Source of the DNA: Candidatus Zixiibacteriota bacterium
Lineage (GTDB): Bacteria > Zixibacteria > MSB-5A5 > UM-FILTER-46-8
Reading direction: 5' to 3'
DNA: 64,000 nt
Assembly: GCA_026983835.1 (NCBI GenBank)
Contig: JALSTH010000104.1
Coordinates: forward strand, 3,862-67,861
The notes under the pieces are model-generated. The model did not search any database and was not told the origin of the DNA. It worked only from the letters and a program-made list of their open reading frames with translations. Shown in pieces: positions 3,272-47,669 of the stretch. A program made the position numbers and the translations under genes. Numbering within the stretch: the first letter of the stretch is position 1; the number at the start of each line of letters is the position of its first letter.

Positions 3272-3282
3272 GTGGGAAAACT

Positions 3283-3750: not shown

Positions 3751-3788
3751 TCCGAACTATTTGAGCACAAAATACAAGGAGAGCACAG

Positions 3789-4145: not shown

Positions 4146-4244
4146 AAAATAAGTTAAGACGAGGTAAATCGGATGTTTCGGCTATGTTTACGCTTTCGAA
4201 TATTACAAAATTGTTAACGGCTAATCTTATTAGGGGCTAATATA

Positions 4245-4646
4245 ATGAGATATGGAATCCTGGTAATTGATGCGGATATTTTATTGAGAGATATGCTTTA
4301 CGACTTCCTTTACGATAAAGGGTATAATGTGTTCACGGCGGAAGATACGGATTCAGGTAGAGAGGCTGTGCATAAACACAAATTTGATGCCTTAATTATA
4401 AATTTGGATCTCCCCGATGGAGGAGGAATAGAACTTTTATCCGAAATAAAAAAGTCGCATCCGAAAATACCAATTATAGTTATTGCTTCGAAATTAGATG
4501 ACAATGAAAGAAAAATAGTTTATGAATTGGGCATTATCTCCTATATGGAAAAACCCTTGAAAATTTCCAAAATTGCGGCAATCCTCAAAAACTCGCTAAT
4601 GCAAAAAGACGAAACTAACCCCGTTAATTACGGTAATGATAAATGA
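4245..4646 (+). CDS. Single-domain response regulator receiver (CheY-like)
   Basis: Has VIDAD, INLDLPDGGG, VIAS and EKP motifs, which are the canonical receiver Asp/Asp/Thr/Lys positions. Confidence 0.8.
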   Translation: MRYGILVIDADILLRDMLYDFLYDKGYNVFTAEDTDSGREAVHKHKFDALIINLDLPDGGGIELLSEIKKSHPKIPIIVIASKLDDNERKIVYELGIISYMEKPLKISKIAAILKNSLMQKDETNPVNYGNDK

Positions 4647-4814
4647 AATAATTGACCCATAAATTATATGAGAAAAACTTGAATTACCGAACCGAATGAA
4701 TTATTGAAAGCAGATATTAAATAATACAATACAAAGACTCCCTTTTTAATAAGATATTCAACAAGAAGTTATTGAATTTTTCAATTTGCCGTTTTATATT
4801 GAAACAGAAAATAG

Positions 4815-5339
4815 GTGGAGAAGTATATGCCAACTTATAAAATTTTAATCGTTGATGACGAAGCTTTTGTGCGGGAATTGTTAGAAGAATTTTTAGCCAA
4901 ACAGGATTTTGAGATTTTTCTTGCCGATTGCGGAGAAGCCGGCATCAAAATAGCCGGCGAGAATGATATCGATGTGGCTTTGGTGGATTTGAAAATGCCT
5001 GGTATTGATGGACTGGAAACCCTAAAACGGCTCAGAAATATACGCCCCAACATACCGATAATTATTTTGACGGGCTATCCTACTATTGAAACCTCTATCA
5101 AAGCTTTAAGGCTTGGGGCATCTGATTATATAATTAAGCCATTTAAACTTAACGAACTAAAAGCAGTGGTGGAGAAAGCTCTCAAAGAGCGGGAATTGAA
5201 GATGGAAATAAATTTGCTTAGGGATAAAATTAAATCAATCGAAAGCAAATTAAAAAAATACGAGTTGGAAACCGAAGTCTCTTACAATCCGACAATAGAC
5301 ACCGAAAAGGACCCCGAGGATAAAAATAATCAAGAATAA
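4815..5339 (+). CDS. Response regulator receiver domain with a C-terminal coiled-coil/charged tail
   Basis: Has ILIVDDE, VDLKMPGIDG, ILTGY and IKPF. The C-terminal ~50 aa are K/E-rich and helical. Confidence 0.8.
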   Translation: MEKYMPTYKILIVDDEAFVRELLEEFLAKQDFEIFLADCGEAGIKIAGENDIDVALVDLKMPGIDGLETLKRLRNIRPNIPIIILTGYPTIETSIKALRLGASDYIIKPFKLNELKAVVEKALKERELKMEINLLRDKIKSIESKLKKYELETEVSYNPTIDTEKDPEDKNNQE

Positions 5340-5511
5340 GCAAAAACACCTTTTCTCATCAAGCAATGCCAACTATCTTCAGGAAAAAACAGATAACCCG
5401 ATAATATAACTATGCGGCGATATGGATGTCTGCCCCTTTGGGTTGAATGACCTAAATATTCTCAAAAGATTGACTTGAAATTTCTTCAACTATAGTTTAT
5501 TATTTTCCCTG

Positions 5512-5871
5512 ATGAGCGGTAAAGAAAAGGAACTTCAATATATCAATAAACTATACGGGCAAATTCTCAATGTTTACGCCCAATTGGGATATCTAATCGA
5601 CAAATCGGCTGCGGTTTTTAATGATTCATCCGCGCGGCAAATTAAATCTATTCTTTTATCCATAAATACTATTGCCAACGAAATAGGCGAATTGAAGGAT
5701 AAAATTTCGATTCGAAGAAAAATCTACTTTGAATCCGGTTGGGATATCGGGGAATTGGAAAATATTACAAAAGATTTTATAAGGGAATTCAATCCCCTAT
5801 TTGCCGAAGTATTGCGGGCGCAGTCGAGGCTCGAATCAGCAGTTAAACAAAGCGGAGTTAAAATATCGTAG
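5512..5871 (+). CDS. Hypothetical small helical protein (no His residues, so not an HPt)
   Basis: 119-aa ORF sitting between the receivers and the histidine kinase. It overlaps the extended N-terminus of ORF 5801, and its coding status is uncertain. Confidence 0.35.
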   Translation: MSGKEKELQYINKLYGQILNVYAQLGYLIDKSAAVFNDSSARQIKSILLSINTIANEIGELKDKISIRRKIYFESGWDIGELENITKDFIREFNPLFAEVLRAQSRLESAVKQSGVKIS

Positions 5872-5884
5872 GCGTAAGTATCCA

Positions 5885-7147
5885 ATGGAAGGGAAAGACG
5901 GTAATTCATTGATATCCAAGGATCGGTTGCAAGCATTCAGCGAATCGTTCGTCTCCTTTACCGAGATGACTCGACAGCTACAGGAGGCTTATCGCGAATT
6001 AGAACAAAGGTATGAGACGCTTAATAAAAAACTGAGCGAAACCAATATCGAACTGCGGCAATCATTGGCGGAAAAAGACAGACTAAGTTCATATCTAAAC
6101 GATATTCTGGAGAATCTGAACTCGGGTGTTGTTGTTATCGACACGAAGGGAGTAGTCCGTCTTTTTAACAGGGCGGCGGAGCGCATATTAAAATATAATA
6201 ATGATAATGTTATCGGCCGCAAGTGGGGCGATATTATAGATTCCCCCAATACTCCATCCGGTTGTTTGGAGACCCTCACAAAAGGAGCGGTGTTCACCGA
6301 GGAGGAGAAAGTAGTAGCTGATGGTGAAGGAGGATTGATTAACATAGGCTTTTCGACTTCCCTTTTGAAATCCCCTGATGGAGAAGTTATAGGGGCGGTG
6401 GAGGTGTTTTACGATTTAACAAAGATGAAAAATTTGGAAAGGGAAATGACTCGGGTTTCGACGCTTGCCGCTTTGGGGAGGATGGCGGCGACTATTGCTC
6501 ATGAGGTCCGCAATCCTTTGGGTGCCATAGCCGGTTTTGCAGCCTTATTGGATAAGGATACTCCCAAAGATGACGACCGTAAAAAGTTAATCGCAAAAAT
6601 AACAACCGGTATAGGAAGGCTAAATAGGATTGTAAACGGATTACTGGACTTTACGCGGGAACCGAATTTGAATATAACCGATGTCGACCTTGAATCGGTC
6701 ATTTCCGAAGTGATTGAGGAAATCGCAGCAAGGAATAATAAAAGGGGAATAATAATCGAGAGCAAAATAAACGCAAGTCTTGGCAAATATCCGCTCGATA
6801 AAGAGAGTTTTCGATTAGTAATGAATAATTTGATAGATAACGCTATCCAAGCCTCACCCGAAGGGGAGAAGGTAAAAGTGATTCTTAGCCGCAAAGGCTC
6901 TCAGGTAAGGGTGGAAGTAATCGATAAGGGAAAAGGAATTACCGAAGATGTAATAAATAGAATATTCGATCCTTTTTTTACCACTCGGGAGAAGGGAACC
7001 GGTTTGGGTTTACCGGTTGTGAAAAAACTAATCAAAGCACACAACGGAACTATTTTTGCAGAAAGCGGCGGTATAAATAAAGGGGCGAGATTTGTTATTT
7101 GTCTTCCGTTGTTAAACCCCGAACATCCTGATTACAATAAGGAATAA
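5885..7147 (+). CDS. Cytoplasmic PAS sensor histidine kinase, NtrB family (FlrB/FleS/FlgS-like)
   Basis: Coiled coil, then PAS (VVVIDTKGVVRLFNRAAERIL), HisKA H-box (HEVRNPLGAIAGFAALL) and HATPase_c (DKGKGI, GTGLGL). The start was trimmed from ORF 5801 to the internal ATG at ~5885 to avoid overlapping the upstream ORF. Confidence 0.8.
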   Translation: MEGKDGNSLISKDRLQAFSESFVSFTEMTRQLQEAYRELEQRYETLNKKLSETNIELRQSLAEKDRLSSYLNDILENLNSGVVVIDTKGVVRLFNRAAERILKYNNDNVIGRKWGDIIDSPNTPSGCLETLTKGAVFTEEEKVVADGEGGLINIGFSTSLLKSPDGEVIGAVEVFYDLTKMKNLEREMTRVSTLAALGRMAATIAHEVRNPLGAIAGFAALLDKDTPKDDDRKKLIAKITTGIGRLNRIVNGLLDFTREPNLNITDVDLESVISEVIEEIAARNNKRGIIIESKINASLGKYPLDKESFRLVMNNLIDNAIQASPEGEKVKVILSRKGSQVRVEVIDKGKGITEDVINRIFDPFFTTREKGTGLGLPVVKKLIKAHNGTIFAESGGINKGARFVICLPLLNPEHPDYNKE

Positions 7148-7151
7148 AGCT

Positions 7152-8546
7152 ATGCGGAACGATTTTAATAAAGGGATAAAGATTTTAGTAGCCGATGATG
7201 ATTCTTTAATGCGGGATTTCCTGATGGAGGTTTTATCCCGTTCGGGATATCAAGCTTTAAGTGTTCCAGACGGGAAAAGTGCTGTTGAGGCGATTAATCG
7301 GGATGACTTTAACATTATCATAACCGATGTCAAAATGCCGGGTTATGATGGGATGAAGGTCTTAAAAGCGGCATTGAGTAAAAATCCGCAATCTAAGGTT
7401 ATTCTGATTACGGGTTATGGGACAATTGAAAATGCCGTAGCCGCAATGAAGGAAGGTGCCTTTGATTATTTGACAAAAGGCGAGAAAACCTCGCCCGATG
7501 AAATAGAAATAGTGCTGAAACGGGCTATTAATTATCAAAAGCTCGAAACGGAAAACAAACGGCTGAAAAATGAGTTATCGAATAAATATTCTTTTTCCAA
7601 TATGATAGGCAAAAGTCCACAGATGTTGCGTATTTACGATATGATCAAGACGGTTGCCGACAGCAGCGCCACGGTTTTAATCACCGGAAAGTCAGGAACG
7701 GGGAAAGAATTAGTTGCCAAAGCGATACATTTTAACTCAAAGAGAAAAGATTATCCATTTATAAAACTTAACTGTGCCGCCCTGCCGGATGGATTGGTCG
7801 AATCCGAATTGTTCGGCCATGAAAAGGGCGCTTTCACCGGAGCGATAAAAACTGTGAAAGGCAGATTTGAGTTAGCTAATGGGGGCACGGTTTTATTGGA
7901 TGAAATCTCGGAAATGTCGGTTAATATGCAGGCTAAACTGTTGAGGGTTTTGCAGGAGCGGGAGTTTGAACGGATAGGTTCGAGCCGTACCATACAAGCA
8001 GATGTAAGAATCATCGCTACTTCCAATCGGAATTTGAAAGAGGAATACCGTAAAGGGCGCTTTCGGGAAGATCTATATTATAGATTAAATGTAATTCCCA
8101 TTGAGATACCCGAATTATCCGAACGCCGAGAGGATATTCCTCTTTTAATAGAACATTTTATCGAAAAATATTCTTCCAAGAACAATAAACCGATAAAAGC
8201 AATTTCGGAGACGGCAATGAAAGTTCTCTCCGATTATAGTTGGCCCGGAAATGTCCGTGAACTGGAAAATTGTATCGAAAGAGCGGTGGTCGTAAATAAA
8301 TCGGGGACAATAGAAAAAGATGACCTGCCCGGAAATATCTTTGATATTGCAAAAAACGATTTGCCGGAAAGAATCAAACCGGGTATGTCTATAAAAGAGA
8401 TGGAGAAGACTCTCATCCTGAAGACCCTCAAAAAAAGCGGGGGCAACCGAACGCATGCCGCTGAGACTTTGGGCATAACTACAAGAACCTTAAGGAACAA
8501 ACTTGCCGAGTATGGTTTGCATAGCCGTCAGATCGACTCGGAATAA
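7152..8546 (+). CDS. Sigma-54-dependent response regulator, NtrC family (receiver + AAA+ with GAFTGA + Fis-type HTH; FlrC/FleR/FlgR-like)
   Basis: Receiver (ILVADDD, ITDVKMPG), Walker A GKSGTGKE, the ESELFGHEKGAFTGA sigma-54 contact motif, and a C-terminal HTH (RTHAAETLGITTRTLRNKL). It is 4 nt downstream of the kinase. Confidence 0.9.
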   Translation: MRNDFNKGIKILVADDDSLMRDFLMEVLSRSGYQALSVPDGKSAVEAINRDDFNIIITDVKMPGYDGMKVLKAALSKNPQSKVILITGYGTIENAVAAMKEGAFDYLTKGEKTSPDEIEIVLKRAINYQKLETENKRLKNELSNKYSFSNMIGKSPQMLRIYDMIKTVADSSATVLITGKSGTGKELVAKAIHFNSKRKDYPFIKLNCAALPDGLVESELFGHEKGAFTGAIKTVKGRFELANGGTVLLDEISEMSVNMQAKLLRVLQEREFERIGSSRTIQADVRIIATSNRNLKEEYRKGRFREDLYYRLNVIPIEIPELSERREDIPLLIEHFIEKYSSKNNKPIKAISETAMKVLSDYSWPGNVRELENCIERAVVVNKSGTIEKDDLPGNIFDIAKNDLPERIKPGMSIKEMEKTLILKTLKKSGGNRTHAAETLGITTRTLRNKLAEYGLHSRQIDSE

Positions 8547-8683
8547 TCTATTGTTCCTTTCCATAATAGGGCATAATGTGGGATTGATTCGATTCTTCAC
8601 CTGAGGGTTTAATCTATTCTAAAATTGCCGATATTTTAAGTAATTATTGGTTTTTAGACGACAATCTTAAAAAAAGAGCTTAT

Positions 8684-12840: not shown

Positions 12841-13104
12841 GTGTGCACCCACCTCCGACCCTCTGCACAAATGCGCATCGGGGTAGTTAACTCAGACCGA
12901 GCCACCCCGCAACACACCGAGTGTTCGCTTACCGCTGCTACCTTCCGGTCCTGACGGGGTTCGGCGATCTTCAGTTGTGCGGGACCCGATCCTCAACGCC
13001 ACTTGCACCGATAACGCAAATGGCTTTAGGCCTCGGGTGGGAATTCGACCCCGGTATAGCGGATTCCGGGTTACAGGGCACCGCTAGCTCCCCGTCTAGC
13101 ACAT
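12841..13104 (-). ncRNA. ffs: Signal recognition particle RNA, long (Bacillus-type, Alu-domain-containing) form, about 264 nt
   Basis: Minus-strand sequence contains the domain IV core GUCAGGACCGGAAGGUAGCAGC. The 5' part (GUGCUAGACGGGGAGCUAGCGGUGCCCUGUAACCCGGAAUCCGCU...) closely parallels the Alu domain of B. subtilis scRNA, and the 3' end (...GGUGGGUGCACAC) pairs back with the 5' end. It lies between tRNA-Ala and dnaX, as in the scr-dnaX-yaaK-recR arrangement. Confidence 0.85.
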
Positions 13105-13113
13105 AAATTCTAA

Positions 13114-13186
13114 TGGAGTTGAGGAGATTCGAACTCCCGGCCTCCTGAGTGCGATTCAGGCGCTCTCCCAGCTGAGCTACAACCCC
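13114..13186 (-). tRNA. tRNA-Ala (anticodon CGC); CCA not encoded
   Basis: Minus strand reads GGGGTTGTAGCTCAGCTGGGAGAGCGCCTGAATCGCACTCAGGAGGCCGGGAGTTCGAATCTCCTCAACTCCA. It folds as a cloverleaf and carries the G3:U70 Ala identity pair. The anticodon loop is AUCGCAC. Confidence 0.85.
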
Positions 13187-13399
13187 ATTCCTTTCACTAA
13201 AAATCAAACAATAATATAAAAAATCAATAATTATTGCAAATGAAAATTTGTAAAGGTTAATTTCAAGCGGAATATTCAATATTGGAACTCATCGGATATT
13301 TTTGTAAATAAAAACCGCAAGTGTTCCGATAACATATATAACCACAAATAGTTGTGGAAAGCGGTCTAATCTTACATTTAAGCATCCGGAGATTATTTA

Positions 13400-15226
13400 A
13401 TGAATCTGGGTTCAACCCGTAAAATCCTAAAATGGATATCAGGAATAATCCTTATCGTTGCTGTTATACTTATAATCCAATCCGAATCATCAATTAAGAC
13501 AAAATTGGATGATTTAAATCGGAAGGATCTACTAACACAAAACCAATATTCGGGGATGGAGCAACAGCTTTTTCAAATATCCTCTTTGTTGGAAAGGATA
13601 TCGGGGTTATTAAATAAGCACATTCTCGCACTATCCGCCAATGATAAAAGTAATTTTTCAAACCGCATTAATTCCTATCAAAATAAACTCCTAAATACAA
13701 TTTACGATCTTGAGGGAAAATTGGATGAGGATCAAATTCAAATAATGGATGAAATCAAAAATGATGTGGCGTTATATATAACTAACGATATGATAGTGCA
13801 GGATTATAGCAATAGGGGATTAAAAAAGAAGGCTTGGGGATTTATACAGGATAGTTTGGAACAAAATTTCAATAGCGCTTTAACAAATATCGACAAATTG
13901 AACCAACAGCTTTCGGATAGCAAAGATAGAGAATTAGCGAAATTGAAGGGTGATATAGCAGGAGTGGAAGCTAAAGCCGACTTTACACTTAAAGTGGCTT
14001 ATATGCTAATACTATTTTCTATTGCGGGGTTTCTTTTTTCCTTCTTTATGCCGTCAAGGGGTAAGGCAAACCAAAGACAACGGGATAATAAAAGAATTAA
14101 AACTAAAAACAGGGTAGATAGTACGGAAAGGAATTCGCAAACTATTGAGGGGTCCGCAACCGTCGAAACAAATTATTCCAAAAGTAATAAGATTGCCGCA
14201 AATGTAATCAACAAACCCTCCCAAGATTCAATACAGGAAGAGCTCAGACAACAAAATGAAATTGCGAAACAAAGGAAAAAAATGCTGAATGAGGTCGATA
14301 AATTGACTTCTTATGATACGAAACGAGATAAACCATCATTGGATTTCGGAACCTATTTCAAGAATTCCAATAAAGTATCGGAATTGCTTAAATCGGCGGG
14401 AGAACTGTCATCCTCATCAATTGTCGAAGCTCAAGATATAGCCCTAAAAATTGCGAAAATGGGGGAGTACGAAATAAGGAAATTAGCTTCATATACAATT
14501 AAGATGTCAAGGGATGTGCAGAAGATTATTGATAAAAACAACAGCGCACTGCTTAACAACCTTAAAAACGCCGAAAACACAAGCGCAGAACTCCAAAACA
14601 TTGTCAAGAATATCGGTCGAATTGAAAATCTGCTTACAGGAATCGAGGGTACTGAAGATATTATAAATTCATTGGATAATATGACGGTGAAAATAGGGGG
14701 CTTAAACCAAATAAAGAAAAAGCATTCTTTTGAAGGATTAACAAATGAACTTAAAGCCACCTTCCAAGATATTGAAAATGGAGAATTGGAAGGCGAAGAA
14801 ACATCGTTAAATAATTATGAAGAGGAATCGATACAGCCAAGCATACCCGATGATATCGATATAGTTACGGCGAATACTTCATTGGAATCTTTAAGTGAAG
14901 AAGATGTTTCCGAGAATAGTACGGGCGAAGAAGAAACCATAGAGAATACTAAGTCCGATAATGCATCCGATGATTTAGAGCAGGACAAAGCATCTTCAAA
15001 TGATGGAAATATCGGGGACACTCCAAAGAATGCCGAGCCGCAAAAAGATCAGGAAAATGATGTGCAAATCCTTTCTGACAAAGAACTTGAGGAAGCACTG
15101 AATGGAATCGAACCTCCGAATGGTATTACCGACAAAGTTCCCGATAACGAGGGAAATAATATAAAGGATATAACAGATAATATCGATAAACAAGCCGATG
15201 AAGAATTGATGGCCGATAAAGATTAA
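13400..15226 (+). CDS. Hypothetical membrane-anchored coiled-coil protein with a strongly acidic low-complexity C-terminal tail
   Basis: 608 aa. N-terminal TM (ILKWISGIILIVAVILII), second hydrophobic segment (VAYMLILFSIAGFLFSFFMP), long heptad-like helical regions, and a D/E-rich last ~150 aa. No recognisable catalytic motif. Confidence 0.5.
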   Translation: MNLGSTRKILKWISGIILIVAVILIIQSESSIKTKLDDLNRKDLLTQNQYSGMEQQLFQISSLLERISGLLNKHILALSANDKSNFSNRINSYQNKLLNTIYDLEGKLDEDQIQIMDEIKNDVALYITNDMIVQDYSNRGLKKKAWGFIQDSLEQNFNSALTNIDKLNQQLSDSKDRELAKLKGDIAGVEAKADFTLKVAYMLILFSIAGFLFSFFMPSRGKANQRQRDNKRIKTKNRVDSTERNSQTIEGSATVETNYSKSNKIAANVINKPSQDSIQEELRQQNEIAKQRKKMLNEVDKLTSYDTKRDKPSLDFGTYFKNSNKVSELLKSAGELSSSSIVEAQDIALKIAKMGEYEIRKLASYTIKMSRDVQKIIDKNNSALLNNLKNAENTSAELQNIVKNIGRIENLLTGIEGTEDIINSLDNMTVKIGGLNQIKKKHSFEGLTNELKATFQDIENGELEGEETSLNNYEEESIQPSIPDDIDIVTANTSLESLSEEDVSENSTGEEETIENTKSDNASDDLEQDKASSNDGNIGDTPKNAEPQKDQENDVQILSDKELEEALNGIEPPNGITDKVPDNEGNNIKDITDNIDKQADEELMADKD

Positions 15227-15428
15227 TCGATAAACACGCATAAACCTCATCAATCCCCCCTTGAAAGCAAAAAGACAATTTTATAATATGTGAAAGGATA
15301 TACACTATCCCTGCAAGCTACTGCATATAGTTGATATGACAATATTATATTATCTTAATTACACTTAGTTAATCCATTATGGGACAGCGGATAATATTTC
15401 GGTAGGTGATGATTCAAACAGCGGGGAT

Positions 15429-15443
15429 TGGCACATAATTTGC
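15429..15443 (+). promoter_or_regulatory. Sigma-54 (RpoN) -24/-12 promoter element, TGGCAC-N5-TTGC
   Basis: Sequence tTGGCACataatTTGCt matches the canonical consensus exactly, about 70 nt upstream of ATG 15514. A good Shine-Dalgarno (AAGGGAG) precedes the start. Confidence 0.55.
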
Positions 15444-15513
15444 TTGATTAATAAGGCGATAGTAGTAGGTTAGGAATTATTCTGAGCTCACAGGAAGTTA
15501 TAAGGGAGCATTT

Positions 15514-16338
15514 ATGAAGAAATATTTGATAGTATTGTTATTTATTTTCGCAATTGTGTGGGCACCACAGATTTATTCGCAGGAACGGCCTGCTGTTCAT
15601 ACTACATATCCTGAAAATGGTTTGTCGGGATCGATTATAATTACTCCCAATGATTCAACCTGTGAGATAGGAACTGATGGAGGATATTTCCGCTATGATG
15701 TTTTGATTAGTAATAATTATAGCCATTTGGCAAACGGTTATATATGGGGGAAGGTGCATAGTGTCGAAACTGGTCAGGAATGGGGTCCCCTGCTTTTGAC
15801 ATCGCTAACCTTAGGCCCTTATGAAACTCTATTGATAGAGGATGCGGATTTATATGTTCCTTATTGTATAAGTGAGGGGTCCTATTTATTTGTCGTCAGT
15901 ATTGGATGCTATCCGATTATAGTCGATAGTGATACAGCCGAGTTCTTTAAGGATGGTGAATCTGAAATAGATTGTCCTCCCAACCTTCTTGTTGATGAAA
16001 ATACTAACATTCCGCCGGGATCGGTTGAGTCTTCGTGTAATGGTGGTAGTATCGATGATAGCGGAATTATCCCTATGGCATTCAACATAAATAAAATTTA
16101 TCCTAATCCTTTTAATGCGTCGGTTAAAATAGATTTCAGCTTGTTCCAACCCAATGAAGTAAGAGTTAAAATTATAAATCTTGCGGGGGAGGTAATCGAA
16201 ACTCTTGAAAACAATTATATGGATGCCGGTGAACACGAGCTGATTTGGAAGGCATCTTCGAAGTCGTCAGGAATATATTTTATAGAATTAGAAGTTTCCG
16301 GGAAAAAGGAAATACGGAAGATATCTTTAATAAAATAA
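15514..16338 (+). CDS. Secreted protein with a type IX secretion system C-terminal sorting domain (Por_Secre_tail / type A CTD); the passenger domain has no known function
   Basis: N-terminal signal peptide MKKYLIVLLFIFAIVWAPQIYSQ. The C-terminal ~80 aa carry the canonical CTD motifs KIYPNPFNASVKIDF, SGIYFIELEV and a terminal KEIRKISLIK. Confidence 0.85.
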   Translation: MKKYLIVLLFIFAIVWAPQIYSQERPAVHTTYPENGLSGSIIITPNDSTCEIGTDGGYFRYDVLISNNYSHLANGYIWGKVHSVETGQEWGPLLLTSLTLGPYETLLIEDADLYVPYCISEGSYLFVVSIGCYPIIVDSDTAEFFKDGESEIDCPPNLLVDENTNIPPGSVESSCNGGSIDDSGIIPMAFNINKIYPNPFNASVKIDFSLFQPNEVRVKIINLAGEVIETLENNYMDAGEHELIWKASSKSSGIYFIELEVSGKKEIRKISLIK

Positions 16339-16368
16339 CTATCTTCGCACAAAAGCTATTCGCTTATA

Positions 16369-16396
16369 AGCCGGGATATTTATCTCGGCTTTTTTA
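16369..16396 (+). terminator. Rho-independent terminator (10-bp stem with one G.U, 2-nt loop, U-tract)
   Basis: AGCCGGGATA tt TATCTCGGCT followed by TTTTTTAATTT, 30 nt after the stop of the T9SS cargo gene. Confidence 0.6.
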
Positions 16397-16587
16397 ATTT
16401 CGTACATTCCCATTTTAAAATAATATCTTTACTACCGGTTCTATCCCGCAACTCGGCATTACAATCGAAAATTCCGGAAAATATCATATAAACTATTTTC
16501 ATATCGCATAATCAATCAAGCATCACCCCCTTGATGCCGATAATAATATTACTGTTTTGAAAAATAATAATCCTTCGATTAGATGAT

Positions 16588-20228: not shown

Positions 20229-21152
20229 TCAAAAAGACTTTATGGGATTGTAAATCAGCGATACCAAAAGTTCACCAATTTGCTTAAGACTTTTTGGCGA
20301 ACATTTATCCGGCGTGTCAGATAGAGTGTGCCAATATGGATAATCAAAATCAATTATATCCACCATCGGGATACCTGCTTTTATCAGGGGTATATGGTCA
20401 TCGTAAACTTGATATTTAAGACGAGGGACAAAGCTTACTAACCCCAGCTCAGCAATAGCCCTACTGATCCATATCGATTCAACCAACGCTGGATTTGTGT
20501 AATAGGAATACTCCTCCATATATATTTGTAAATCCTTATCTCCGATCATATCCAAAAGTATCCCGTAGTCGGGGTAAGGGTAGGACTTTTGCGAAGCATA
20601 GTATTTGGAACCGAGGGAGAAATGCTCCAAGTCTCCCGCTTTTCCCCAATCCTCCCCGTCAAACAAAACAATTGTAATGCCAATCGGCGGCGGATATGTC
20701 GAAACCAAGCGAGCTATCTCCAAGAGAACTGCCACCCCAGAGGCACCATCGTTTGCTCCCAAAATAGGTTTTAACGCCTTTGTGGAATCACTTTCCTTGT
20801 CGGCACGAGGCCTAGTATCCCAGTGGGCACACAGAAGGATTCTATTTTGTTTCAACAAATCGAAAGAGGTAATTATGTTATACATTGGGATTGTGTTGTT
20901 CGGCAATTCGGGAGTGAAGTTTTGTTTTTCAACCGAATTGGAGTATTTTTTCAGATATGATACCAAAAATTCCCCGCATAGTCGATGTCCTTCTCCGCCG
21001 GGATTTCGGGTGCCAAAAGAGCATTGTTTCTCCAAAAGTCTAAAAGCATTCTTCTCATCGAAAAAGGGATATCCTTCGGGTTGGTTTTGAGCGAATCCAT
21101 CAATGCCGCAAAAGAGAACAGCAATTATAATTACCGAAAGTATTTTATTCAT
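20229..21152 (-). CDS. M28-family zinc peptidase-fold protein, glutaminyl-peptide cyclotransferase-like (secreted/lipoprotein)
   Basis: Signal peptide MNKILSVIIIAVLFCGIDGFAQ. Metal-site motifs CAHWDTRP, GANDGASGVAVLLEIA and VLFDGEDWG. Its start codon overlaps the sprA-like stop by 1 nt (translational coupling). Confidence 0.6.
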   Translation of the reverse strand: MNKILSVIIIAVLFCGIDGFAQNQPEGYPFFDEKNAFRLLEKQCSFGTRNPGGEGHRLCGEFLVSYLKKYSNSVEKQNFTPELPNNTIPMYNIITSFDLLKQNRILLCAHWDTRPRADKESDSTKALKPILGANDGASGVAVLLEIARLVSTYPPPIGITIVLFDGEDWGKAGDLEHFSLGSKYYASQKSYPYPDYGILLDMIGDKDLQIYMEEYSYYTNPALVESIWISRAIAELGLVSFVPRLKYQVYDDHIPLIKAGIPMVDIIDFDYPYWHTLSDTPDKCSPKSLKQIGELLVSLIYNPIKSF

Positions 21153-24100
21153 TAGAATCTTATCTCAGTCCATAATCCGATTTCGCGGGAATGTTGTTTC
21201 CTCCCCAATTTTTTATCATTGGTGTCCGACCAGCCTAACTTAAACCCACCGCTTATCTGACTGGAGAACGAATAGCTGGCATTGAAATCGAAGCTAAAGC
21301 TTTTTCTATCGGTCTCGGTTGTGTACGGATATCCGGGTTTGGCGTTCTCAGATTTATCATACTGTTGATTCGCCGTAATTCCAAGCGTTAAATTTGAATC
21401 GAATTTAATCCTTTTTAAGAAAGGCAGGTTTATTCCCTGAGGTGCCTTAAAGGAATAATTCAACGAAAGGGATATCGATGAACTCTTCGATCGAGTTGTG
21501 CTCTCACTTCCGCTTCTCAAATTTTCTTTCTTTGATTTGGAGGTCTCCATCTTCAAACTGGTCCTAATTCCATTTTTCCAATTAAGAGACCAAGAGAATA
21601 GAGGAGAGAACGATTTGGTAATATCTTTATTGGTTAATTCACCCGTGTTTGGATTTTCCTTTGTATCGGTTTTTACAGAATAGCCGGATTGCAATGAGGA
21701 AGATGAAGCAATTTTTTTCAGTAGCTTAATTTTTTCCAGGCCAGTTAAGTTTGCGGATATATCGGGAAATGTAGTCGAGACGGATTTAGTCGGTTCGGAT
21801 GTAGATCGGGTTATGGAGATACGCTGGGTATATGACCCATCCAATTTAAGAGAACTGAACGGCGCTATCCCCGATTTAAGGCTATAACTGTCGGTAAGCG
21901 ACTTGCTGTCGCCGGTTTGGATACGGATAGTGTCTGCTTTTGTTGAAACCCCCGGATCCTCGGTAAAGCCAAACCTGTAAAGGAAAGACGGCTGACCTAC
22001 TAACCCCGTTCTGCCGAAATTCTTAGAGCGTGTAAGAGAGCCGCGGATCGGGTCGAGAGAGGTAAAAATATCTTTAAACCTCTGCCATAACCATACTGGG
22101 CTTCCGGGCATAGGGGATTTTTTTATCTCTTCCTCAATTTGCTTTCCCTTTTCCCCCTCCGATTGATTGCTATTCTTTGGTGGCGCACCGATTCTTGGGA
22201 GTTTACTGCCCCTGGATTTTTTATAACCAAATAGCTTCTGTAGATTAAGCGATGTATCAAAAGAAATACTGTTGCTGCTACTCAATGATAATGTCGAATC
22301 GGGATGCTGTTTCGGATCTGAATTCTGATGGTAATTAGACGAGAAATTCATCCTCGTATCTAAAAAACTCAATATCTGAGGCCTCCAACCGGAACCGAAC
22401 CTTTGAGTGTAATCTATTTCCTCTCCCAATTTCAATTTCTCCGGCTTGAATGATATATTTAATTGGTCACTCCTGCGGATATCTCGTATAGATGTAAAAT
22501 TGAAAGAGTAATCCATCGCATTAAAGGGGGAGTATTGTGTATTACCGCTTAATGTCAAATCACGGGTGAATGTGTCCGGAAGCCAACCGGTGCTTGAAAG
22601 CTTCTTACTTTTTAGCGAGCTCATATCTCCTTGAAAATATGTGGAAGCAGGGAAGAGGTAAAAGTCGGATTTGGAGAGTTTATTCAAAAGAAATATGTTT
22701 TTTGTCCAACCGAAAATGGAAAGCTTTGGTTTGGATTTTATCGACATATCATATTTACCGGAAAAGTTCCATCTATCGGTAGATGAAAAAGGAATAGTCG
22801 AGGTTTTAGATTCGGTGTATGAAGACGAAAAAGAACCCGAAAGACGGTTTAGTGTGGCATTGATAAACCAATTCCCCGTCTTCATATTCATCCGTTCGGA
22901 AACATTAAATTGAGTCGAAGTGTTCTTCGATGCTTCTTCGCTCCTCAACTCATCAGGTAAGACAACATCCGACCCCGGTTTTAATCGAGGTAAACTCAGC
23001 GTGCTTTGCCAAGACGCGGTAACAGGGATATTCAACCCTAATTCCGGAGGGAACAGTTTGTGCAATGATACACCCCCGCTTACACTGTTTGTTGTTTGAA
23101 TTGAACCCGGACCTTTTTTCTCCAATAGGGTAACAAAGTCTGCTCCTTTTCGCTGATACGATGCCGAGAAATTAACGAAATCCGCGAAATGCGCATCAAC
23201 ACTCATCCTTCCCGCCCAATCGGATTTATTGCGAGGGTTGGTTAAACGAAGTTCATCCACCCAGATCTCACCGCTGACAGGACCATCGGCCGAATTATCT
23301 ACCTCCAATCCTAAATCAAACCATCGGATTGTCGTCAAGGTTGGACGCCCTTTAACCGAATAATTGCCGTCAGTCGTGTCGGGAGTACCGCCGGTACTAT
23401 CGTTCCAATTCATAAGCATATAATTTTTCAGCGCTGTAATGTTTGCAAAATCAACAATCATATCATTGGAGGTTGCCCAACCGGGCGAAATATGATTATG
23501 ATATTCATAATAGTTTAACGAATCACTTCCGAACCTGAAAAAGAATTTTATTTCCCCCGAAGGGACGCCCGAAGCTATGTCCGGATCCCCATAGACAAAC
23601 ATCTGCATATTCTCGTAGTTGGAATAATCTTCCGCCGAATACGGTATCATAAAAGCATCAGCCCCACGACCCGGCCATAAATTATCATATTGGAGAACAA
23701 GCGATTGCTCTTTTTTGCGTAAACCGGTACTTCTGTCCCGTTCGCCGGATACTCCCGGAGGCGAAAAGTAATCGGTATTCTCCTGAGTATTTTTAACCGT
23801 CACTTCAAATTTCTCACCGGGATACTGCGGTATTGGATGAAATTGCGGAATAGCATCCGAAGAATCGGAAACGGAAAATATCTTCCCAACTTCCCATTTA
23901 TTACCTACCAGTTGGAATTGAGCTATTTGCAGAGTTATTGTGTCTTCCCCGGTAAACCAAAAACGTGCAAATTCTATTTGATTCCAATCGGGGAATCCCG
24001 TCTTGGAGAACATTGTAGAATCCTTAATCGGAATCCGATATAATTTCCAACCGGTCGGGGTACCATCTTTTAGAGTTGAATCGGCAATAAAACTGGTACT

Positions 24101-27082
24101 GTCCAAATCGAAACTAAATGAGAAATAACTATTGTTTCTGTCCAATCCACCGTTATTGTTTATATCCTCAGTATCGGGCTTCCATCCCCTATCGGGGTCT
24201 TCACGGTTGTTCTCAGTCCCGTTTATATGACTATAATCATACCTGTCGGAATAATTCCAATCATCCCCGTGAGGATCCCCCGGTTCCCAAAATTTTGTTG
24301 AATCCTCATTGGCATCGAAAACGCCATCTAGACCGGTATCCTCATCCTCTTCCAAAACGCCATCGCTGATACCATTCTTACGATCCTCAGTGTCAAGGAC
24401 ACCATCCCCATCTATATCCTCATCTATCCTGCCCAAATCGATATGCATCACCGCATCGGCATTATCGGATTTGCGCATCCATATCTCAAGGAACTTACTT
24501 CTTGTTTGATCGTAAAGCCCGGGCGGTAAGGACCTCATTACTCCAGCCCACGCCGAATCGCTATCGGGGAAATATCGAACTTCAAGTATATTTGTTCTAT
24601 CCTCAGATTTTTTAACCTCTCTTTCGGGCCAGATATCGGTGAGTTTTAGCTGGTCGTAAGGATTGTACCACCACAAGCGCGAACGCTCGGGATCCATTGG
24701 CGTTAGAGAATCCTCTACCGGTTTGGAGCATAATGTCCAGGACCCTCGCAATATCGAAAGATCGGTGTATTCCCTGCTTGATTCGAAATCATCTATGAAC
24801 GCCTCCCCTTTGGTGTTCATATTCGGTACCGACTGGGCAAACTCCGCTTGGAAATCTAATGACGAATTAGATTCGGTTTCTATTAACGGTAGAGCGTCGA
24901 CAACAGAAGTCATAAATTTAGGCTCAAAATTAAGTGTTAAATCCGTATCCCAAACGAAATTGCGAGTAGGCTCCCTGCCCACACGGGGCCTTTGCTCATT
25001 TGATGTTTCACCCTTATAAAGAGCGGTCATTCCCAATTTGCTGTTATCGTTAAAGTGATAGTCGAGCCGGGTTCCAAAAAGCGATTTTTTCTCCGGCATA
25101 AAAAAGGGAGCAAACTCGTAATCGATAGTGATATTCGCATTCGGATCCGTTGCATCCTGCGTCAAAAAAGTAACCTGTCCCAATTCATATATTATATTAT
25201 AATCTTTCCCCCTTTGTAATGTCCTTCCATTTAGTTTCACCACCTCAGAACCTTTGATTATATTAGCGTGTCCCAGTGAAAAAGTGGCTTGCCGATTCAT
25301 TGTCTTAACTTTAAGATAATATTTTGATTTTTGATTTATAACGACGGAATTGGTCGAATTATATATTTCGGGTACCCTGTCCTCAGAATCCAAAGAATCG
25401 CTGTCAAATGGATGCATTATGGGAAATATCAATACTCCCGAAGACAAATAGACATAATCGAGGTCTACGATGTTATCCGGGGTTGGATTACCCGACAGAT
25501 CCTTTTGGTCTAATCCCAAAACTTGGATATAAGGTTTTCCCTTGTATTCCCACGGGTCGGTGTCAGGTTGCTCCCCACCCTTCGGCCCCTTATATATACT
25601 TATTTCCAAACCATCTTGACTAATATTGGTTCCTCCCAGACTATAAACATTCCTCCATTGATTTTCCCAAGTCGAGAAAGTGCTATCAGCATTGCTGCGC
25701 CATATTAATTTCAAAACCAAAGTGGTATCCTGCAAAACCGAATCGGAAGGGGGAGGACGGAAATAATCTTTTGTCCCTATGGTATCTGTTTGTCCACTAC
25801 CCCTAATTATCTCAATAAATGCTCCCAGAGTTGCGGTAGTAGATAATGAACGGTTGAGGATTACATAAAATTGCCTTCGATTCAATTCGTATTCGTCGCT
25901 GTCCATACGCCGAAATAAATCGTATTTATACTCATTGCGCTGCTCTTCATCCTCAGGTAATACAGGCGGTATTGTAGGGGAGACCATAACCATCGCATGT
26001 GGATCCGTTTGGTTATTTGTTTGTTCGTTTACATAGAGGTCAAAAGCTCCTATCGAATCACCGGAATTCGGATTGTACGGTATTCCCAAGAAAAAATATT
26101 TTCGGGGGACATAATCGTAATCACGAATGATAAGGTCGTTGCTTTCGGCTCCGGCGTTGAAAGTGGTTTTTTCCGTGGAACCGCGTTCCTGGCTGGCTAT
26201 CATTGTAATATCGAGTTTTCCCACCTGCGCCAAAGCCTTTATGCCGAATAATCCCTGCACACTTCCGGAATATCCCACAAATTGAGACCCGCCAATCGAC
26301 AAATTGGTGTTCCCTGCTTCAATCGATTTAATTATTTCATCCTCTTCACCGGTATATTTCAAATGAATACGATTCTCCAAATCGGACATAGCTTTTGAGT
26401 CCTGATCGACTTCCACGGATATTTTTGAGCCGATGGTACCGGTGATTTTGAATTTCGATTCCTGCTCCATATGAAGGTTGGGGAATTTGGATTGCTTATA
26501 GGTGGCTGTACTTTTTACACCCGAATCCCAGTCAGACTTACCCGAAAGCGATATTTTTCTATACCCCGTTACCCTCAGCGCTGGACCGCCTTCACCGATT
26601 ATGCTTCTCACCACCTTTGGAAACTTGATTGGTATCTCGTATCGAATGCCTTCGCTTTCTGTTCCTTTTTCCTTTTCGAAAAGATTCTTTTTTAATTCAT
26701 CCTTCCATGCATTTTTCATTACCATATCAATATCCTGCTTGAGATAAGAATCCCAAGGGACATATAGAGGCTTCAGGGTTTGATAACCACCTTCTGAATA
26801 ACTTATTTTCACCCAGCTTTCTTTATAAAAAAATTGAATATCCCTATTTATCTTGAATTTTGTTGAAAGTAGAGGCTGTCTTCTTTTGGTAATGGACAAA
26901 CCATAAACCGGGGCTTGATGATAAAAATCCAAATACTGGATTTTCGACTTATTCAAAGAAATTTTTAATTGTTGGGCAGTGGAAAAACCAAATGCAAAAA
27001 CAACAGCTATTAAACCTAATAATAGCCTTTGTGGAGTTAAAAGATTGGATATGAATTTTAGATGTGCCTTTAGGGACATCAA
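21152..27082 (-). CDS. sprA: Giant outer-membrane beta-barrel protein, SprA/Sov-like candidate T9SS translocon (1976 aa)
   Basis: N-terminal signal peptide (LLLGLIAVVFAFGFSTAQ), then beta-rich sequence throughout with aromatic-terminated strands. Size and composition are typical of the SprA family. It contains internal thrombospondin-type-3-like Asp-rich Ca-binding repeats. The identification is by recognition, not by an HMM hit. Confidence 0.65.
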   Translation of the reverse strand: MMSLKAHLKFISNLLTPQRLLLGLIAVVFAFGFSTAQQLKISLNKSKIQYLDFYHQAPVYGLSITKRRQPLLSTKFKINRDIQFFYKESWVKISYSEGGYQTLKPLYVPWDSYLKQDIDMVMKNAWKDELKKNLFEKEKGTESEGIRYEIPIKFPKVVRSIIGEGGPALRVTGYRKISLSGKSDWDSGVKSTATYKQSKFPNLHMEQESKFKITGTIGSKISVEVDQDSKAMSDLENRIHLKYTGEEDEIIKSIEAGNTNLSIGGSQFVGYSGSVQGLFGIKALAQVGKLDITMIASQERGSTEKTTFNAGAESNDLIIRDYDYVPRKYFFLGIPYNPNSGDSIGAFDLYVNEQTNNQTDPHAMVMVSPTIPPVLPEDEEQRNEYKYDLFRRMDSDEYELNRRQFYVILNRSLSTTATLGAFIEIIRGSGQTDTIGTKDYFRPPPSDSVLQDTTLVLKLIWRSNADSTFSTWENQWRNVYSLGGTNISQDGLEISIYKGPKGGEQPDTDPWEYKGKPYIQVLGLDQKDLSGNPTPDNIVDLDYVYLSSGVLIFPIMHPFDSDSLDSEDRVPEIYNSTNSVVINQKSKYYLKVKTMNRQATFSLGHANIIKGSEVVKLNGRTLQRGKDYNIIYELGQVTFLTQDATDPNANITIDYEFAPFFMPEKKSLFGTRLDYHFNDNSKLGMTALYKGETSNEQRPRVGREPTRNFVWDTDLTLNFEPKFMTSVVDALPLIETESNSSLDFQAEFAQSVPNMNTKGEAFIDDFESSREYTDLSILRGSWTLCSKPVEDSLTPMDPERSRLWWYNPYDQLKLTDIWPEREVKKSEDRTNILEVRYFPDSDSAWAGVMRSLPPGLYDQTRSKFLEIWMRKSDNADAVMHIDLGRIDEDIDGDGVLDTEDRKNGISDGVLEEDEDTGLDGVFDANEDSTKFWEPGDPHGDDWNYSDRYDYSHINGTENNREDPDRGWKPDTEDINNNGGLDRNNSYFSFSFDLDSTSFIADSTLKDGTPTGWKLYRIPIKDSTMFSKTGFPDWNQIEFARFWFTGEDTITLQIAQFQLVGNKWEVGKIFSVSDSSDAIPQFHPIPQYPGEKFEVTVKNTQENTDYFSPPGVSGERDRSTGLRKKEQSLVLQYDNLWPGRGADAFMIPYSAEDYSNYENMQMFVYGDPDIASGVPSGEIKFFFRFGSDSLNYYEYHNHISPGWATSNDMIVDFANITALKNYMLMNWNDSTGGTPDTTDGNYSVKGRPTLTTIRWFDLGLEVDNSADGPVSGEIWVDELRLTNPRNKSDWAGRMSVDAHFADFVNFSASYQRKGADFVTLLEKKGPGSIQTTNSVSGGVSLHKLFPPELGLNIPVTASWQSTLSLPRLKPGSDVVLPDELRSEEASKNTSTQFNVSERMNMKTGNWFINATLNRLSGSFSSSYTESKTSTIPFSSTDRWNFSGKYDMSIKSKPKLSIFGWTKNIFLLNKLSKSDFYLFPASTYFQGDMSSLKSKKLSSTGWLPDTFTRDLTLSGNTQYSPFNAMDYSFNFTSIRDIRRSDQLNISFKPEKLKLGEEIDYTQRFGSGWRPQILSFLDTRMNFSSNYHQNSDPKQHPDSTLSLSSSNSISFDTSLNLQKLFGYKKSRGSKLPRIGAPPKNSNQSEGEKGKQIEEEIKKSPMPGSPVWLWQRFKDIFTSLDPIRGSLTRSKNFGRTGLVGQPSFLYRFGFTEDPGVSTKADTIRIQTGDSKSLTDSYSLKSGIAPFSSLKLDGSYTQRISITRSTSEPTKSVSTTFPDISANLTGLEKIKLLKKIASSSSLQSGYSVKTDTKENPNTGELTNKDITKSFSPLFSWSLNWKNGIRTSLKMETSKSKKENLRSGSESTTRSKSSSISLSLNYSFKAPQGINLPFLKRIKFDSNLTLGITANQQYDKSENAKPGYPYTTETDRKSFSFDFNASYSFSSQISGGFKLGWSDTNDKKLGRKQHSREIGLWTEIRF

Positions 27083-47665: not shown

Positions 47666-47669
47666 AATT

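What the first reader, a model, noticed from the sequence alone, without database searches (positions are those of the whole stretch)
15429..16338. Perfect sigma-54 consensus upstream of a T9SS-sorted cargo protein
tTGGCACataatTTGCt at 15429..15443 matches TGGCAC-N5-TTGC exactly. The downstream gene encodes a signal-peptide protein whose last 80 aa are a canonical T9SS C-terminal domain (KIYPNPFN, GIYFIELEV, terminal K-rich strand). This raises the possibility that a secreted or surface-attached T9SS substrate is co-regulated with the flagellar regulon through RpoN. The passenger domain is novel (Cys-containing, no recognisable fold).
Basis: partly seen in the sequence, partly recalled or inferred. 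Interest (0 to 1): 0.6.

Follow-up and report, generated by a model that had tools for sequence, protein, structure and literature searches.

The report
Sigma-54 promoter before small T9SS protein
An uncultured Zixibacteria-like bacterium carries a textbook sigma-54 promoter in front of a small gene for a protein exported by the type IX secretion system; this is a sound but fairly ordinary regulatory prediction, and its proposed link to flagella is not shown.

Summary
The sequence facts hold. TGGCAC-ATAAT-TTGC lies at 15429..15443 (+) in an intergenic region, 70 nt before the ATG of a 274-aa ORF (15514..16338). The ORF has a Shine-Dalgarno site and an intrinsic terminator, so it looks monocistronic. 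Its last ~80 residues pass the curated cut-offs for the T9SS type A sorting domain. SprA, the T9SS translocon, is encoded 5 kb away.

The window has only one other exact GGCAC-N5-TTGCT. It also sits in a promoter position, 47 nt before flgF at the head of a flagellar rod/ring operon. Two such sites were seen against 0.04 expected. An NtrC-type activator with a GAFTGA motif is encoded next to motAB. Sigma-54 use in this organism is therefore credible.

- **Flagellar co-regulation.** The only support is the shared sigma factor. I found no shared enhancer, no linkage and no conserved orthologues.

Sigma-54 control of a T9SS cargo operon has already been shown in Flavobacterium psychrophilum. Verdict: a new member of a known kind, of low to moderate interest.

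The parts
15429..15444 (+). Sigma-54 (-24/-12) promoter element TGGCAC-ATAAT-TTGCT, with GG at 15430-31 and GC at 15442-43
   Evidence: Read directly. It is the only exact TGGCAC-N5-TTGC in the window, against 0.03 expected. GGCAC-N5-TTGCT occurs twice against 0.04 expected, and 0 of 100 shuffles reach 2. It is intergenic and points at the gene.
15454..15456 (+). Predicted transcription start, about 12 nt after the C of the -12 GC. This gives a 5' UTR of about 60 nt.
   Evidence: Inferred from the standard geometry of sigma-54 promoters; not measured. The predicted UTR has no unusual structure (z = 0.36) and no Rfam match.
15502..15508 (+). Shine-Dalgarno sequence AAGGGAG, 5 nt before the ATG
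   Evidence: Read directly.
15514..16338 (+). CDS of the 274-aa T9SS type A cargo protein. The exact protein is on public contig ERZ27262647:k141_524001.
15514..15579 (+). Signal peptide, residues 1-22, with predicted cleavage IYS|Q. The mature N-terminus would be Gln23.
   Evidence: By inspection of the translation: n-region MKK, hydrophobic core, small residue at -1. A glutamine cyclotransferase homologue is encoded next to sprA.
15625..15960 (+). Passenger domain, residues 38-149: a 7-strand CARDB/FnIII-like beta-sandwich from a large family without a Pfam model, which normally sits just before a T9SS sorting domain
15961..16092 (+). Linker rich in Cys, Gly, Ser, Asp and Pro, residues 150-193, predicted disordered
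   Evidence: pLDDT below 50 for residues 159-187 in the full-length model. The family linker has a median of 36 residues.
16093..16335 (+). T9SS type A C-terminal sorting domain, residues 194-274 (motifs YPNPFN, GIYF, K-rich last strand)
   Evidence: PF18962 at 42.3 bits against a cut-off of 27. TIGR04183 at 35.9 bits against a cut-off of 23.
16368..16397 (+). Intrinsic terminator: a 10-bp stem (5 G-C pairs), a 4-nt loop and a T run, 30 nt after the stop codon
15261..15289 (+). Weak sigma-70-like element (TTGAAA-N15-TATAAT, or N17-TAATAT). It is a possible second or alternative promoter.
   Evidence: (9 of 12 matches; such matches are not enriched in the region) and reading.
15289..15304 (.). 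TGT-N10-ACA dyad 125 bp upstream of the -24 element. It is a weak candidate activator (enhancer) site.
   Evidence: 9 in the window against 6.45 expected, so this is a lead only. It is absent upstream of flgF.
56751..56766 (-). Second sigma-54 element, CGGCAC-AATAA-TTGCT, 47 nt before flgF (55976..56704). flgF heads the operon flgF-flgG-flgA-flgH-flgI-flgJ-flgN-flgK-csrA-flgL-fliW.
   Evidence: A flgF homologue of 36% identity in another metagenome also has GGCAC-ACCAT-TTGCT 85 nt upstream.
7152..8546 (+). NtrC-type sigma-54 activator (receiver + AAA+ with GAFTGA + HTH_8). It follows a PAS histidine kinase (5801..7147) and precedes motA/motB.
   Evidence: Pfam Sigma54_activat at 244 bits. NCBIfam gives generic NtrC/AtoC-family hits, all below the equivalog cut-offs. 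GAFTGA was read in the translation.
21152..27082 (-). SprA/Sov, the T9SS outer-membrane translocon
   Evidence: TIGR04189 at 713 bits against a cut-off of 200. SprA_N PF14349.

Best explanation
**Gene structure.** This is a self-contained, monocistronic gene transcribed from a genuine RpoN (sigma-54) promoter.

**Transcription (inferred).**
- Sigma-54 holoenzyme binds GG/GC at 15430-31 and 15442-43 and forms a closed complex.
- An ATP-dependent enhancer-binding activator opens it. I could not identify which activator, and it need not be the flagellar one.
- Transcription starts near 15455 and stops at the hairpin at 16368-16397.

**Export (inferred from family membership).**
- The 274-aa product is exported by Sec.
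- It is cleaved after Ser22. The new N-terminal Gln23 is probably cyclised by the glutamine cyclotransferase encoded beside sprA.
- The SprA-based type IX secretion system recognises it through its type A C-terminal domain.
- That domain is then removed, and the protein is either attached to the surface or released.

**What remains.** The mature protein would be one CARDB/FnIII-like beta-sandwich plus a flexible tail. In thousands of larger T9SS cargo proteins the same module sits about 36 residues before the sorting domain. The likeliest role is a small surface or matrix-binding protein rather than an enzyme.

**Shown and inferred.**
- Shown here: the motif and its statistics, the gene anatomy, the domain memberships, the fold, and the presence of the T9SS and of a sigma-54 activator.
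- Inferred: actual RpoN dependence, the start site, the cleavage site, secretion and function.
For: **Promoter.**
- The exact consensus occurs once, against 0.03 expected.
- It is intergenic, correctly oriented and 70 nt from the ATG, in a window that is 90.4% coding.
- The only other exact GGCAC-N5-TTGCT is also in a promoter position, before flgF (2 observed against 0.04 expected).
- Rod and ring operons are classic sigma-54 targets. This is established knowledge from the Vibrio FlrC, Pseudomonas FleR and Campylobacter FlgR systems.
- A distant flgF homologue carries the same element.
- A third near-match, TGGAAC-N5-TTGCTT, lies 123 nt before fliR.
- A sigma-54 activator with GAFTGA is encoded in the window.

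**Gene unit.** Shine-Dalgarno site and terminator.

**Cargo.**
- PF18962 and TIGR04183 both score above their cut-offs at the extreme C-terminus.
- SprA matches TIGR04189 at 713 bits.
- A glutamine cyclotransferase homologue matches at E about 1e-48.

**Passenger.**

**Precedent.** A sigma-54 promoter confirmed by mutagenesis drives the operon of the T9SS adhesin SprB in F. psychrophilum (PMC9723704).
Against: - No rpoN gene is in the window and none was called in the 20 kb of flanks read. Its presence is inferred only from the activator.
- No activator-binding site could be identified. The TGT-N10-ACA dyad is weak.
- There is no orthologue with upstream DNA. The promoter's conservation could therefore not be tested.
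- No terminator separates the gene from the upstream 608-aa gene, and a weak sigma-70-like element exists at 15261-15289. Other transcripts are possible.
- No expression data were available.
Confidence: 0.65

Rival explanations
1. The promoter is real and is fired by the flagellar activator: the FlrC/FleR-like regulator at 7152..8546, or a master regulator elsewhere. The T9SS cargo would then be made together with the flagellar rod and ring genes, as part of the motility programme.
For: - The promoter core, including the TTGCTT extension, is the same as at flgF and as the near-match at fliR.
- The only activator seen in 84 kb sits beside motAB.
- In F. psychrophilum sigma-54 drives the operon of a motility-linked T9SS cargo (PMC9723704).
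Against: - The three upstream regions share no sequence above a shuffled null and no common dyad.
- The gene is 40 kb from the flg operon. recR, ybaB, dnaX, SRP RNA and a tRNA separate it from motAB.
- The protein has no flagellar domain.
- The activator is a generic NtrC/AtoC-family member, below every equivalog cut-off including FlgR and FlbD.
- The number of activators in the genome is unknown.
Confidence: 0.15
2. The sigma-54 match is a chance occurrence. The gene is transcribed from a housekeeping-type promoter in the 287-bp spacer, or by read-through from the upstream 608-aa gene.
For: - A sigma-70-like TTGAAA-N15/17-TATAAT/TAATAT lies at 15261-15289.
- No terminator lies between 15226 and 15429.
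- The spacer is AT-rich, and half of the motif (ATAATTTGC) is AT-rich.
- Conservation could not be checked.
Against: - An exact 10-base consensus is expected 0.03 times per 64 kb. About 10% of the window is non-coding.
- The second exact site is also in a promoter position, in front of a classic sigma-54 target operon.
- Sigma-70-like matches in the region are no more frequent than in shuffles: 5 against 7.2.
Confidence: 0.15
3. The ORF is a decaying stub of a once larger T9SS cargo gene that kept only its C-terminal cassette. It would have no function of its own.
For: - In 146 top family members the domain has a median of 325 residues in front of it.
- The other 'short' members lack signal peptides and look like fragments.
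- The closest relative, P0002, carries an extra Laminin_G_3 domain.
Against: - The signal peptide is intact and lies directly before the domain.
- The gene has a good Shine-Dalgarno site, its own consensus promoter, its own terminator, and an open frame with all family-invariant residues.
Confidence: 0.05

Closest known systems
Sigma-54 promoters of flagellar rod, ring and hook operons (Vibrio FlrBC, Pseudomonas FleSR, Campylobacter/Helicobacter FlgSR systems)
   Same: The -24/-12 element is identical in type. The same window has such an element before flgF, and a histidine kinase plus NtrC-type activator pair next to motAB. motAB itself has a sigma-28-like promoter, as in those hierarchies.
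   Different: The gene in question is not a flagellar gene, is not linked to the flagellar clusters, and shares no recognisable enhancer with them. The family attributes are from my own knowledge of those systems, not tested here.
Sigma-54 (motif SM4) promoter of the remFG-sprCDBF operon, and sigma-54-dependent exported proteins, in Flavobacterium psychrophilum (PMC9723704)
   Same: A sigma-54 promoter upstream of a T9SS-secreted surface protein in the FCB superphylum. In that case it was validated by start-site mapping and promoter mutagenesis.
   Different: - That organism glides and has no flagella.
- SprB is a giant adhesin, and F. johnsoniae work (my recollection, not tested here) assigns it a type B sorting domain.
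- Here the cargo is 274 aa with a type A domain, in a flagellated Zixibacteria-like organism.
- Nothing here is validated experimentally.
IgSF-linker-CTD tandem of the Porphyromonas gingivalis gingipain RgpB (PMC4804311)
   Same: An Ig-like beta-sandwich, then an unstructured linker, then the T9SS C-terminal sandwich. That paper proposes that both Ig-like domains influence processing. The family found here has the same order, with a strikingly fixed 35-37-residue linker.
   Different: No sequence relationship to RgpB IgSF was tested. RgpB carries a catalytic domain, whereas this protein has nothing in front of the sandwich except a signal peptide.
RbmA, the Vibrio cholerae biofilm matrix scaffold with tandem FnIII domains; CARDB and NPCBM_assoc (E-set) domains
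   Different: Sequence identity is 13-17%. The target itself has no Pfam hit even at E 10. Fold similarity among beta-sandwiches does not imply shared function, and RbmA is not a T9SS substrate.

Membership tests
Sigma-54 (RpoN)-dependent promoter | Invariant GG (-24) and GC (-12) separated by exactly 10 nt, within TGGCAC-N5-TTGCW | tested here: met
   TGGCAC-ATAAT-TTGCT at 15429..15444. Unique in the window, against 0.03 expected.
Sigma-54 (RpoN)-dependent promoter | Located in non-coding DNA, on the same strand as a gene start and a short distance upstream of it | tested here: met
   Intergenic and 70 nt before the ATG at 15514. The window is 90.4% coding.
Sigma-54 (RpoN)-dependent promoter | rpoN is present in the genome | tested here: inconclusive
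   No rpoN in the 64 kb, and none among the genes called with Pfam families in the two flanking loci. Its presence is implied by an activator with an intact GAFTGA motif. The rest of the MAG could not be read.
Sigma-54 (RpoN)-dependent promoter | An upstream activator (bEBP) binding site, or an identified cognate activator | tested here: inconclusive
   No shared or strong dyad was found. There is only a weak TGT-N10-ACA at 15289-15304.
Sigma-54 (RpoN)-dependent promoter | Transcription start about 12 nt after the GC, and dependence on RpoN | not testable with these tools
   This needs start-site mapping or genetics.
T9SS type A cargo (Por_Secre_tail) | C-terminal sorting domain scoring above the curated thresholds, at the extreme C-terminus | tested here: met
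   PF18962 at 42.3 bits against 27, residues 195-270 of 274. TIGR04183 at 35.9 bits against 23.
T9SS type A cargo (Por_Secre_tail) | N-terminal Sec signal peptide | tested here: met
   By inspection of the translation only: MKK + LIVLLFIFAIVWA + PQIYS|Q. No signal-peptide predictor was available.
T9SS type A cargo (Por_Secre_tail) | T9SS machinery encoded in the same genome | tested here: met
   SprA matches TIGR04189 at 713 bits against 200. There is a weak, sub-threshold PorV/PorQ-family match at 38207..39658. The other components were not seen in the DNA available.
T9SS type A cargo (Por_Secre_tail) | Secretion that depends on the sorting domain, and its removal by PorU | not testable with these tools
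   Experimental.
Flagellar regulon | Same promoter class as flagellar operons of the organism | tested here: met
   flgF carries CGGCAC-N5-TTGCTT. fliR carries TGGAAC-N5-TTGCTT.
Flagellar regulon | A shared activator site, genomic linkage, or a flagellar function of the product | tested here: not met
   No shared upstream motif above the null. The gene is 40 kb from the flg operon. The product has no flagellar domain.
CARDB / NPCBM_assoc / RbmA-like FnIII (E-set beta-sandwich) | 7-strand Ig-like sandwich superimposable on family structures | tested here: met
CARDB / NPCBM_assoc / RbmA-like FnIII (E-set beta-sandwich) | Sequence match to the Pfam models above the gathering score | tested here: not met
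   The target has no hit at E up to 10. Relatives reach 22.4 bits (cut-off 24.4) for PF10633 and 17.7 bits (cut-off 27) for PF22021.

The most novel reading that the evidence does not exclude
The gene encodes a naturally 'cargo-less' T9SS substrate: a signal peptide, the conserved pre-sorting-domain sandwich, a linker and the sorting domain. A flagellated Zixibacterium would switch it on through sigma-54 together with flagellar rod and ring genes. It might then be an RbmA-like surface or matrix scaffold tied to the choice between swimming and attachment, or a factor that tunes T9SS traffic. The domain it carries would be a second, unrecognised part of the T9SS export signal outside the Bacteroidota.
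Probability: 0.08. Interest if true: 0.55.

Novelty: new member of a known kind. Interest (0 to 1): 0.28.

Why it matters
If the promoter is functional, it adds a regulatory data point for an uncultured phylum, Zixibacteria, where nothing is known about either sigma-54 or type IX secretion. It would suggest that sigma-54 control of T9SS surface proteins, shown so far in a gliding flavobacterium, extends to flagellated members of the FCB group.

The by-product may be more useful. A very large domain family without a Pfam model sits at a fixed distance before T9SS sorting domains. This 274-aa protein is a natural minimal construct, just that domain plus the sorting domain. It could be used to ask what the T9SS recognises.

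Tried and rejected
- **Phylogenetic footprinting of the promoter: not possible.**
  - The word-index search found only three proteins that cover the passenger, at 29-33% identity.
  - Two of them start at contig ends. The third has an 85-bp spacer with no sigma-54 motif.
  - The second contig carrying the exact gene is identical over 6,244 bases.
  - The closest genome has the downstream synteny but a different upstream gene.
- **Profile search of the passenger through the word index:** one weak hit. The full HMMER scan was needed.
- **Metagenome locus scan with FlgF:** a single relative.
- **AFDB fold library:** unavailable.
- **Shared enhancer search among the three sigma-54-like promoters:** nothing above shuffled controls. 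Only AT-rich palindromes were found.
- **CCCCCTTG, an 8-mer upstream of both promoters:** it also occurs at three other places, so I rejected it as an enhancer.
- **A sigma-28 promoter at the target:** only a poor match by eye (TAAT-N16-GGCGATAG). It is absent from the scan allowing 2 mismatches.
- **5' UTR structure or a known RNA family in the spacer:** none.
- **Conserved disulfides in the passenger:** rejected, because no Cys column is conserved.

Full report
**The observation**

The sequence at 15429..15443 (+) reads TGGCAC-ATAAT-TTGC, flanked by T on each side. It is the only exact TGGCAC-N5-TTGC in the window on either strand, where dinucleotide-preserving shuffles give 0.03. GG and GC are 10 nt apart, as sigma-54 promoters require.

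The window is 90.4% coding. The motif lies in a 287-bp spacer, on the strand of the next gene, 70 nt before its ATG.

That gene (15514..16338) has these features:
- A Shine-Dalgarno sequence, AAGGGAG, 5 nt before the start.
- A 10-bp hairpin with a T run 30 nt after the stop. It therefore looks like a one-gene transcription unit.
- No Rfam family in the spacer.
- No unusual fold in the predicted leader.

**Is the motif more than chance?**

The shortened pattern GGCAC-N5-TTGCT occurs exactly twice in 64 kb, against 0.04 expected. None of 100 shuffles reached two.

The second copy (56751..56766, minus strand) is also intergenic and also points at a gene start 47 nt away. That gene is flgF, the first gene of flgF-flgG-flgA-flgH-flgI-flgJ-flgN-flgK-csrA-flgL-fliW. 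Rod and ring operons are classic sigma-54 targets in Vibrio, Pseudomonas and Campylobacter (established knowledge).

Further support:
- The only flgF relative retrievable from metagenomes (36% identity, 57% G+C) has GGCAC-ACCAT-TTGCT 85 nt before its start.
- Ten kilobases beyond the window, on the same public contig, TGGAAC-TAAAC-TTGCTT lies 123 nt before fliR, in a 383-bp gap of the fliM...fliQ | fliR-flhB-flhA-flhF-flhG-fliA cluster.
- All three sites share GG[C/A]AC-N5-TTGCTT.
- The window encodes an NtrC-type activator: receiver, Sigma54_activat at 244 bits, HTH_8 and an intact GAFTGA. It follows a PAS histidine kinase and precedes motAB.

rpoN itself is not in the window or among the genes called in the flanks read. 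I conclude that the organism very probably uses sigma-54, and that the site at 15429 is very probably a real promoter. Nothing experimental supports this.

**The product**

- Residues 195-270 of 274 match the T9SS type A sorting domain above both curated cut-offs. PF18962 scores 42.3 bits against 27. TIGR04183 scores 35.9 bits against 23.
- The N-terminus is a plausible Sec signal peptide with cleavage IYS|Q (by inspection only).
- SprA, the T9SS translocon, is encoded at 21152..27082 (TIGR04189, 713 bits).
- Next to it is an M28-fold protein whose best solved relatives are the glutamine cyclotransferases of oral Bacteroidota (E about 1e-48). This fits a Gln at the predicted mature N-terminus.

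**The passenger is not novel**

The word-index search found only three covering homologues. A full HMMER scan with a four-sequence profile of residues 38-149 found much more: 3,557 cluster representatives at E <= 1e-3 and 2,085 at E <= 1e-10.

Among the 146 best family members:
- 127 have a sorting domain detectable with a small model. The rest are mostly cut off right after the domain.
- The domain ends a median of 115 residues before the C-terminus (interquartile range 113-117).
- The linker has a median of 36 residues (interquartile range 35-37).
- A median of 325 residues lies in front of the domain.

In ten members scanned, the regions in front include LVIVD propellers, beta-helices, cohesin, multihaem cytochrome and subtilase. 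No Pfam model covers the domain. The target gives nothing even at E 10, and relatives reach sub-threshold NPCBM_assoc and RbmA-like FnIII.

Structure prediction:
- AlphaFold2 on the domain alone gives pLDDT 90.6 and a seven-strand sandwich.
- The full-length model aligns as two sandwiches to the tandem FnIII protein RbmA. That model is of lower confidence (pLDDT 67).

The layout of sandwich, disordered linker and sorting domain is the one solved for RgpB (PMC4804311). The cysteines are not conserved.

What is unusual is the brevity. The other short family members lack signal peptides and look like fragments. This protein has a signal peptide directly before the domain.

**Link to flagella**

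The only shared feature is the promoter class. Against a link:
- The three upstream regions share no k-mer better than shuffled sequences do.
- Dyad searches give only AT-rich palindromes.
- A TGT-N10-ACA dyad lies 125 bp upstream of the target's -24 element. It is a weak, post-hoc lead and is absent at flgF.
- The gene is 40 kb from flgF. recR, ybaB, dnaX, SRP RNA and a tRNA separate it from the activator-motAB cluster.

motAB itself appears to use a sigma-28-type promoter, TTTA-N15-GCCGATAT at 8608-8634, and fliA is on the contig. So the organism seems to have the usual sigma-54 then sigma-28 cascade. The target has no convincing sigma-28 site. Because each sigma-54 promoter needs its own activator, co-regulation remains possible but unsupported.

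**Origin**

- The exact protein lies on ENA contig ERZ27262647:k141_524001 (179 kb) and on a Logan contig.
- Five downstream genes (a 429-aa protein, WecG, a sugar transferase, the cyclotransferase and SprA) are syntenic with a Zixibacteria MAG and 58-74% identical to it.
- That MAG has a different gene where the 608-aa gene and the target sit. The pair is therefore lineage-specific.

**Comparison with what is known**

In Flavobacterium psychrophilum, a sigma-54 motif mapped at transcription starts precedes chaperone, envelope, gliding and exported-protein genes. Its role at the remFG-sprCDBF operon was confirmed by mutagenesis; that operon encodes SprB, a T9SS-secreted adhesin (PMC9723704). 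Sigma-54 control of a T9SS cargo therefore has precedent. I found no paper mentioning both Zixibacteria and type IX secretion in the library searched.

**Verdict**

This is a well-formed, probably functional sigma-54 promoter in front of a bona fide T9SS type A cargo gene. It is a new member of a known kind. The flagellar co-regulation idea is untested, and the 'novel passenger' claim is refuted. Interest is low to moderate. The most reusable result is the large family, without a Pfam model, of domains that sit before T9SS sorting domains, and this natural minimal substrate.

Noticed in passing
window 56751..56766 (-): The second exact sigma-54 element, CGGCAC-AATAA-TTGCT, lies 47 nt before flgF, at the head of an 11-gene flagellar rod/ring/hook-associated operon. 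A distant flgF homologue (L088:635-649) carries the same element.
   Followed up: yes
L087:3019-3036 (same contig, about 10 kb beyond the right end of the window): TGGAAC-TAAAC-TTGCTT lies 123 nt before fliR, in an unusually long 383-bp gap between fliQ and fliR. It may be an internal sigma-54 promoter for fliR-flhB-flhA-flhF-flhG-fliA.
   Followed up: partly
window 15625..15960, and proteins P0122-P0268: The passenger belongs to a very large domain family with no Pfam model (3,557 cluster representatives). It almost always sits 35-37 residues before a T9SS type A sorting domain, behind very diverse N-terminal domains.
   Followed up: partly
window 8608..8634 (+): A sigma-28-like promoter, TTTA-N15-GCCGATAT, lies 50 nt before motA. 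Other sigma-28-like sites lie at 1831..1857 (TAAA-N15-TCCGATAA, before the SpoIIE-type phosphatase gene) and 16517..16543 (before the 429-aa gene). The pattern at up to 2 mismatches is over-represented, with 31 matches against 14 expected.
   Followed up: partly
window 20229..21152 (-): The M28-fold protein directly downstream of sprA is a close homologue of the glutamine cyclotransferases of oral Bacteroidota (PDB 6qql and 6qro, E about 1e-48). The sprA-cyclotransferase pairing is conserved in a Zixibacteria MAG (L006).
   Followed up: partly
window 15256, 16526, 20080(-), 56971(-), 57872: The 8-mer CCCCCTTG occurs five times against 1.8 expected, mostly in intergenic DNA near gene ends or starts. 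No function was assigned.
   Followed up: no
window 12841..13186 (-): A bacterial large SRP RNA (177.7 bits) and a tRNA lie between dnaX and the 608-aa gene. The 102-aa ORF at 12971..13279 and the 5' extension of the longest dnaX ORF overlap them and are spurious.
   Followed up: yes
window 809..8546 (+): A dense signalling cluster sits upstream of motAB. It comprises a WYL regulator, a GAF-SpoIIE phosphatase, an RsbW-like kinase, a STAS antagonist (together a partner-switching module), two single-domain response regulators, a PAS histidine kinase and the sigma-54 activator.
   Followed up: no
window 47132..49896 (-): csrA, a flagellin-family gene (flgL-like, 636 aa with a long central insert) and fliW lie together. 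This suggests a FliW-CsrA partner switch like those of Bacillus and Campylobacter.
   Followed up: no
window 13400..15226 (+): The 608-aa upstream neighbour has no Pfam or NCBIfam match. It appears to have two hydrophobic segments, coiled-coil-like regions and a very acidic tail. Like the target, it is absent from the syntenic Zixibacteria locus.
   Followed up: no
window 38207..39658 (+): A 483-aa outer-membrane-like protein has a sub-threshold N-terminal match to the PorV/PorQ family (42.9 bits, cut-off 90).
   Followed up: no
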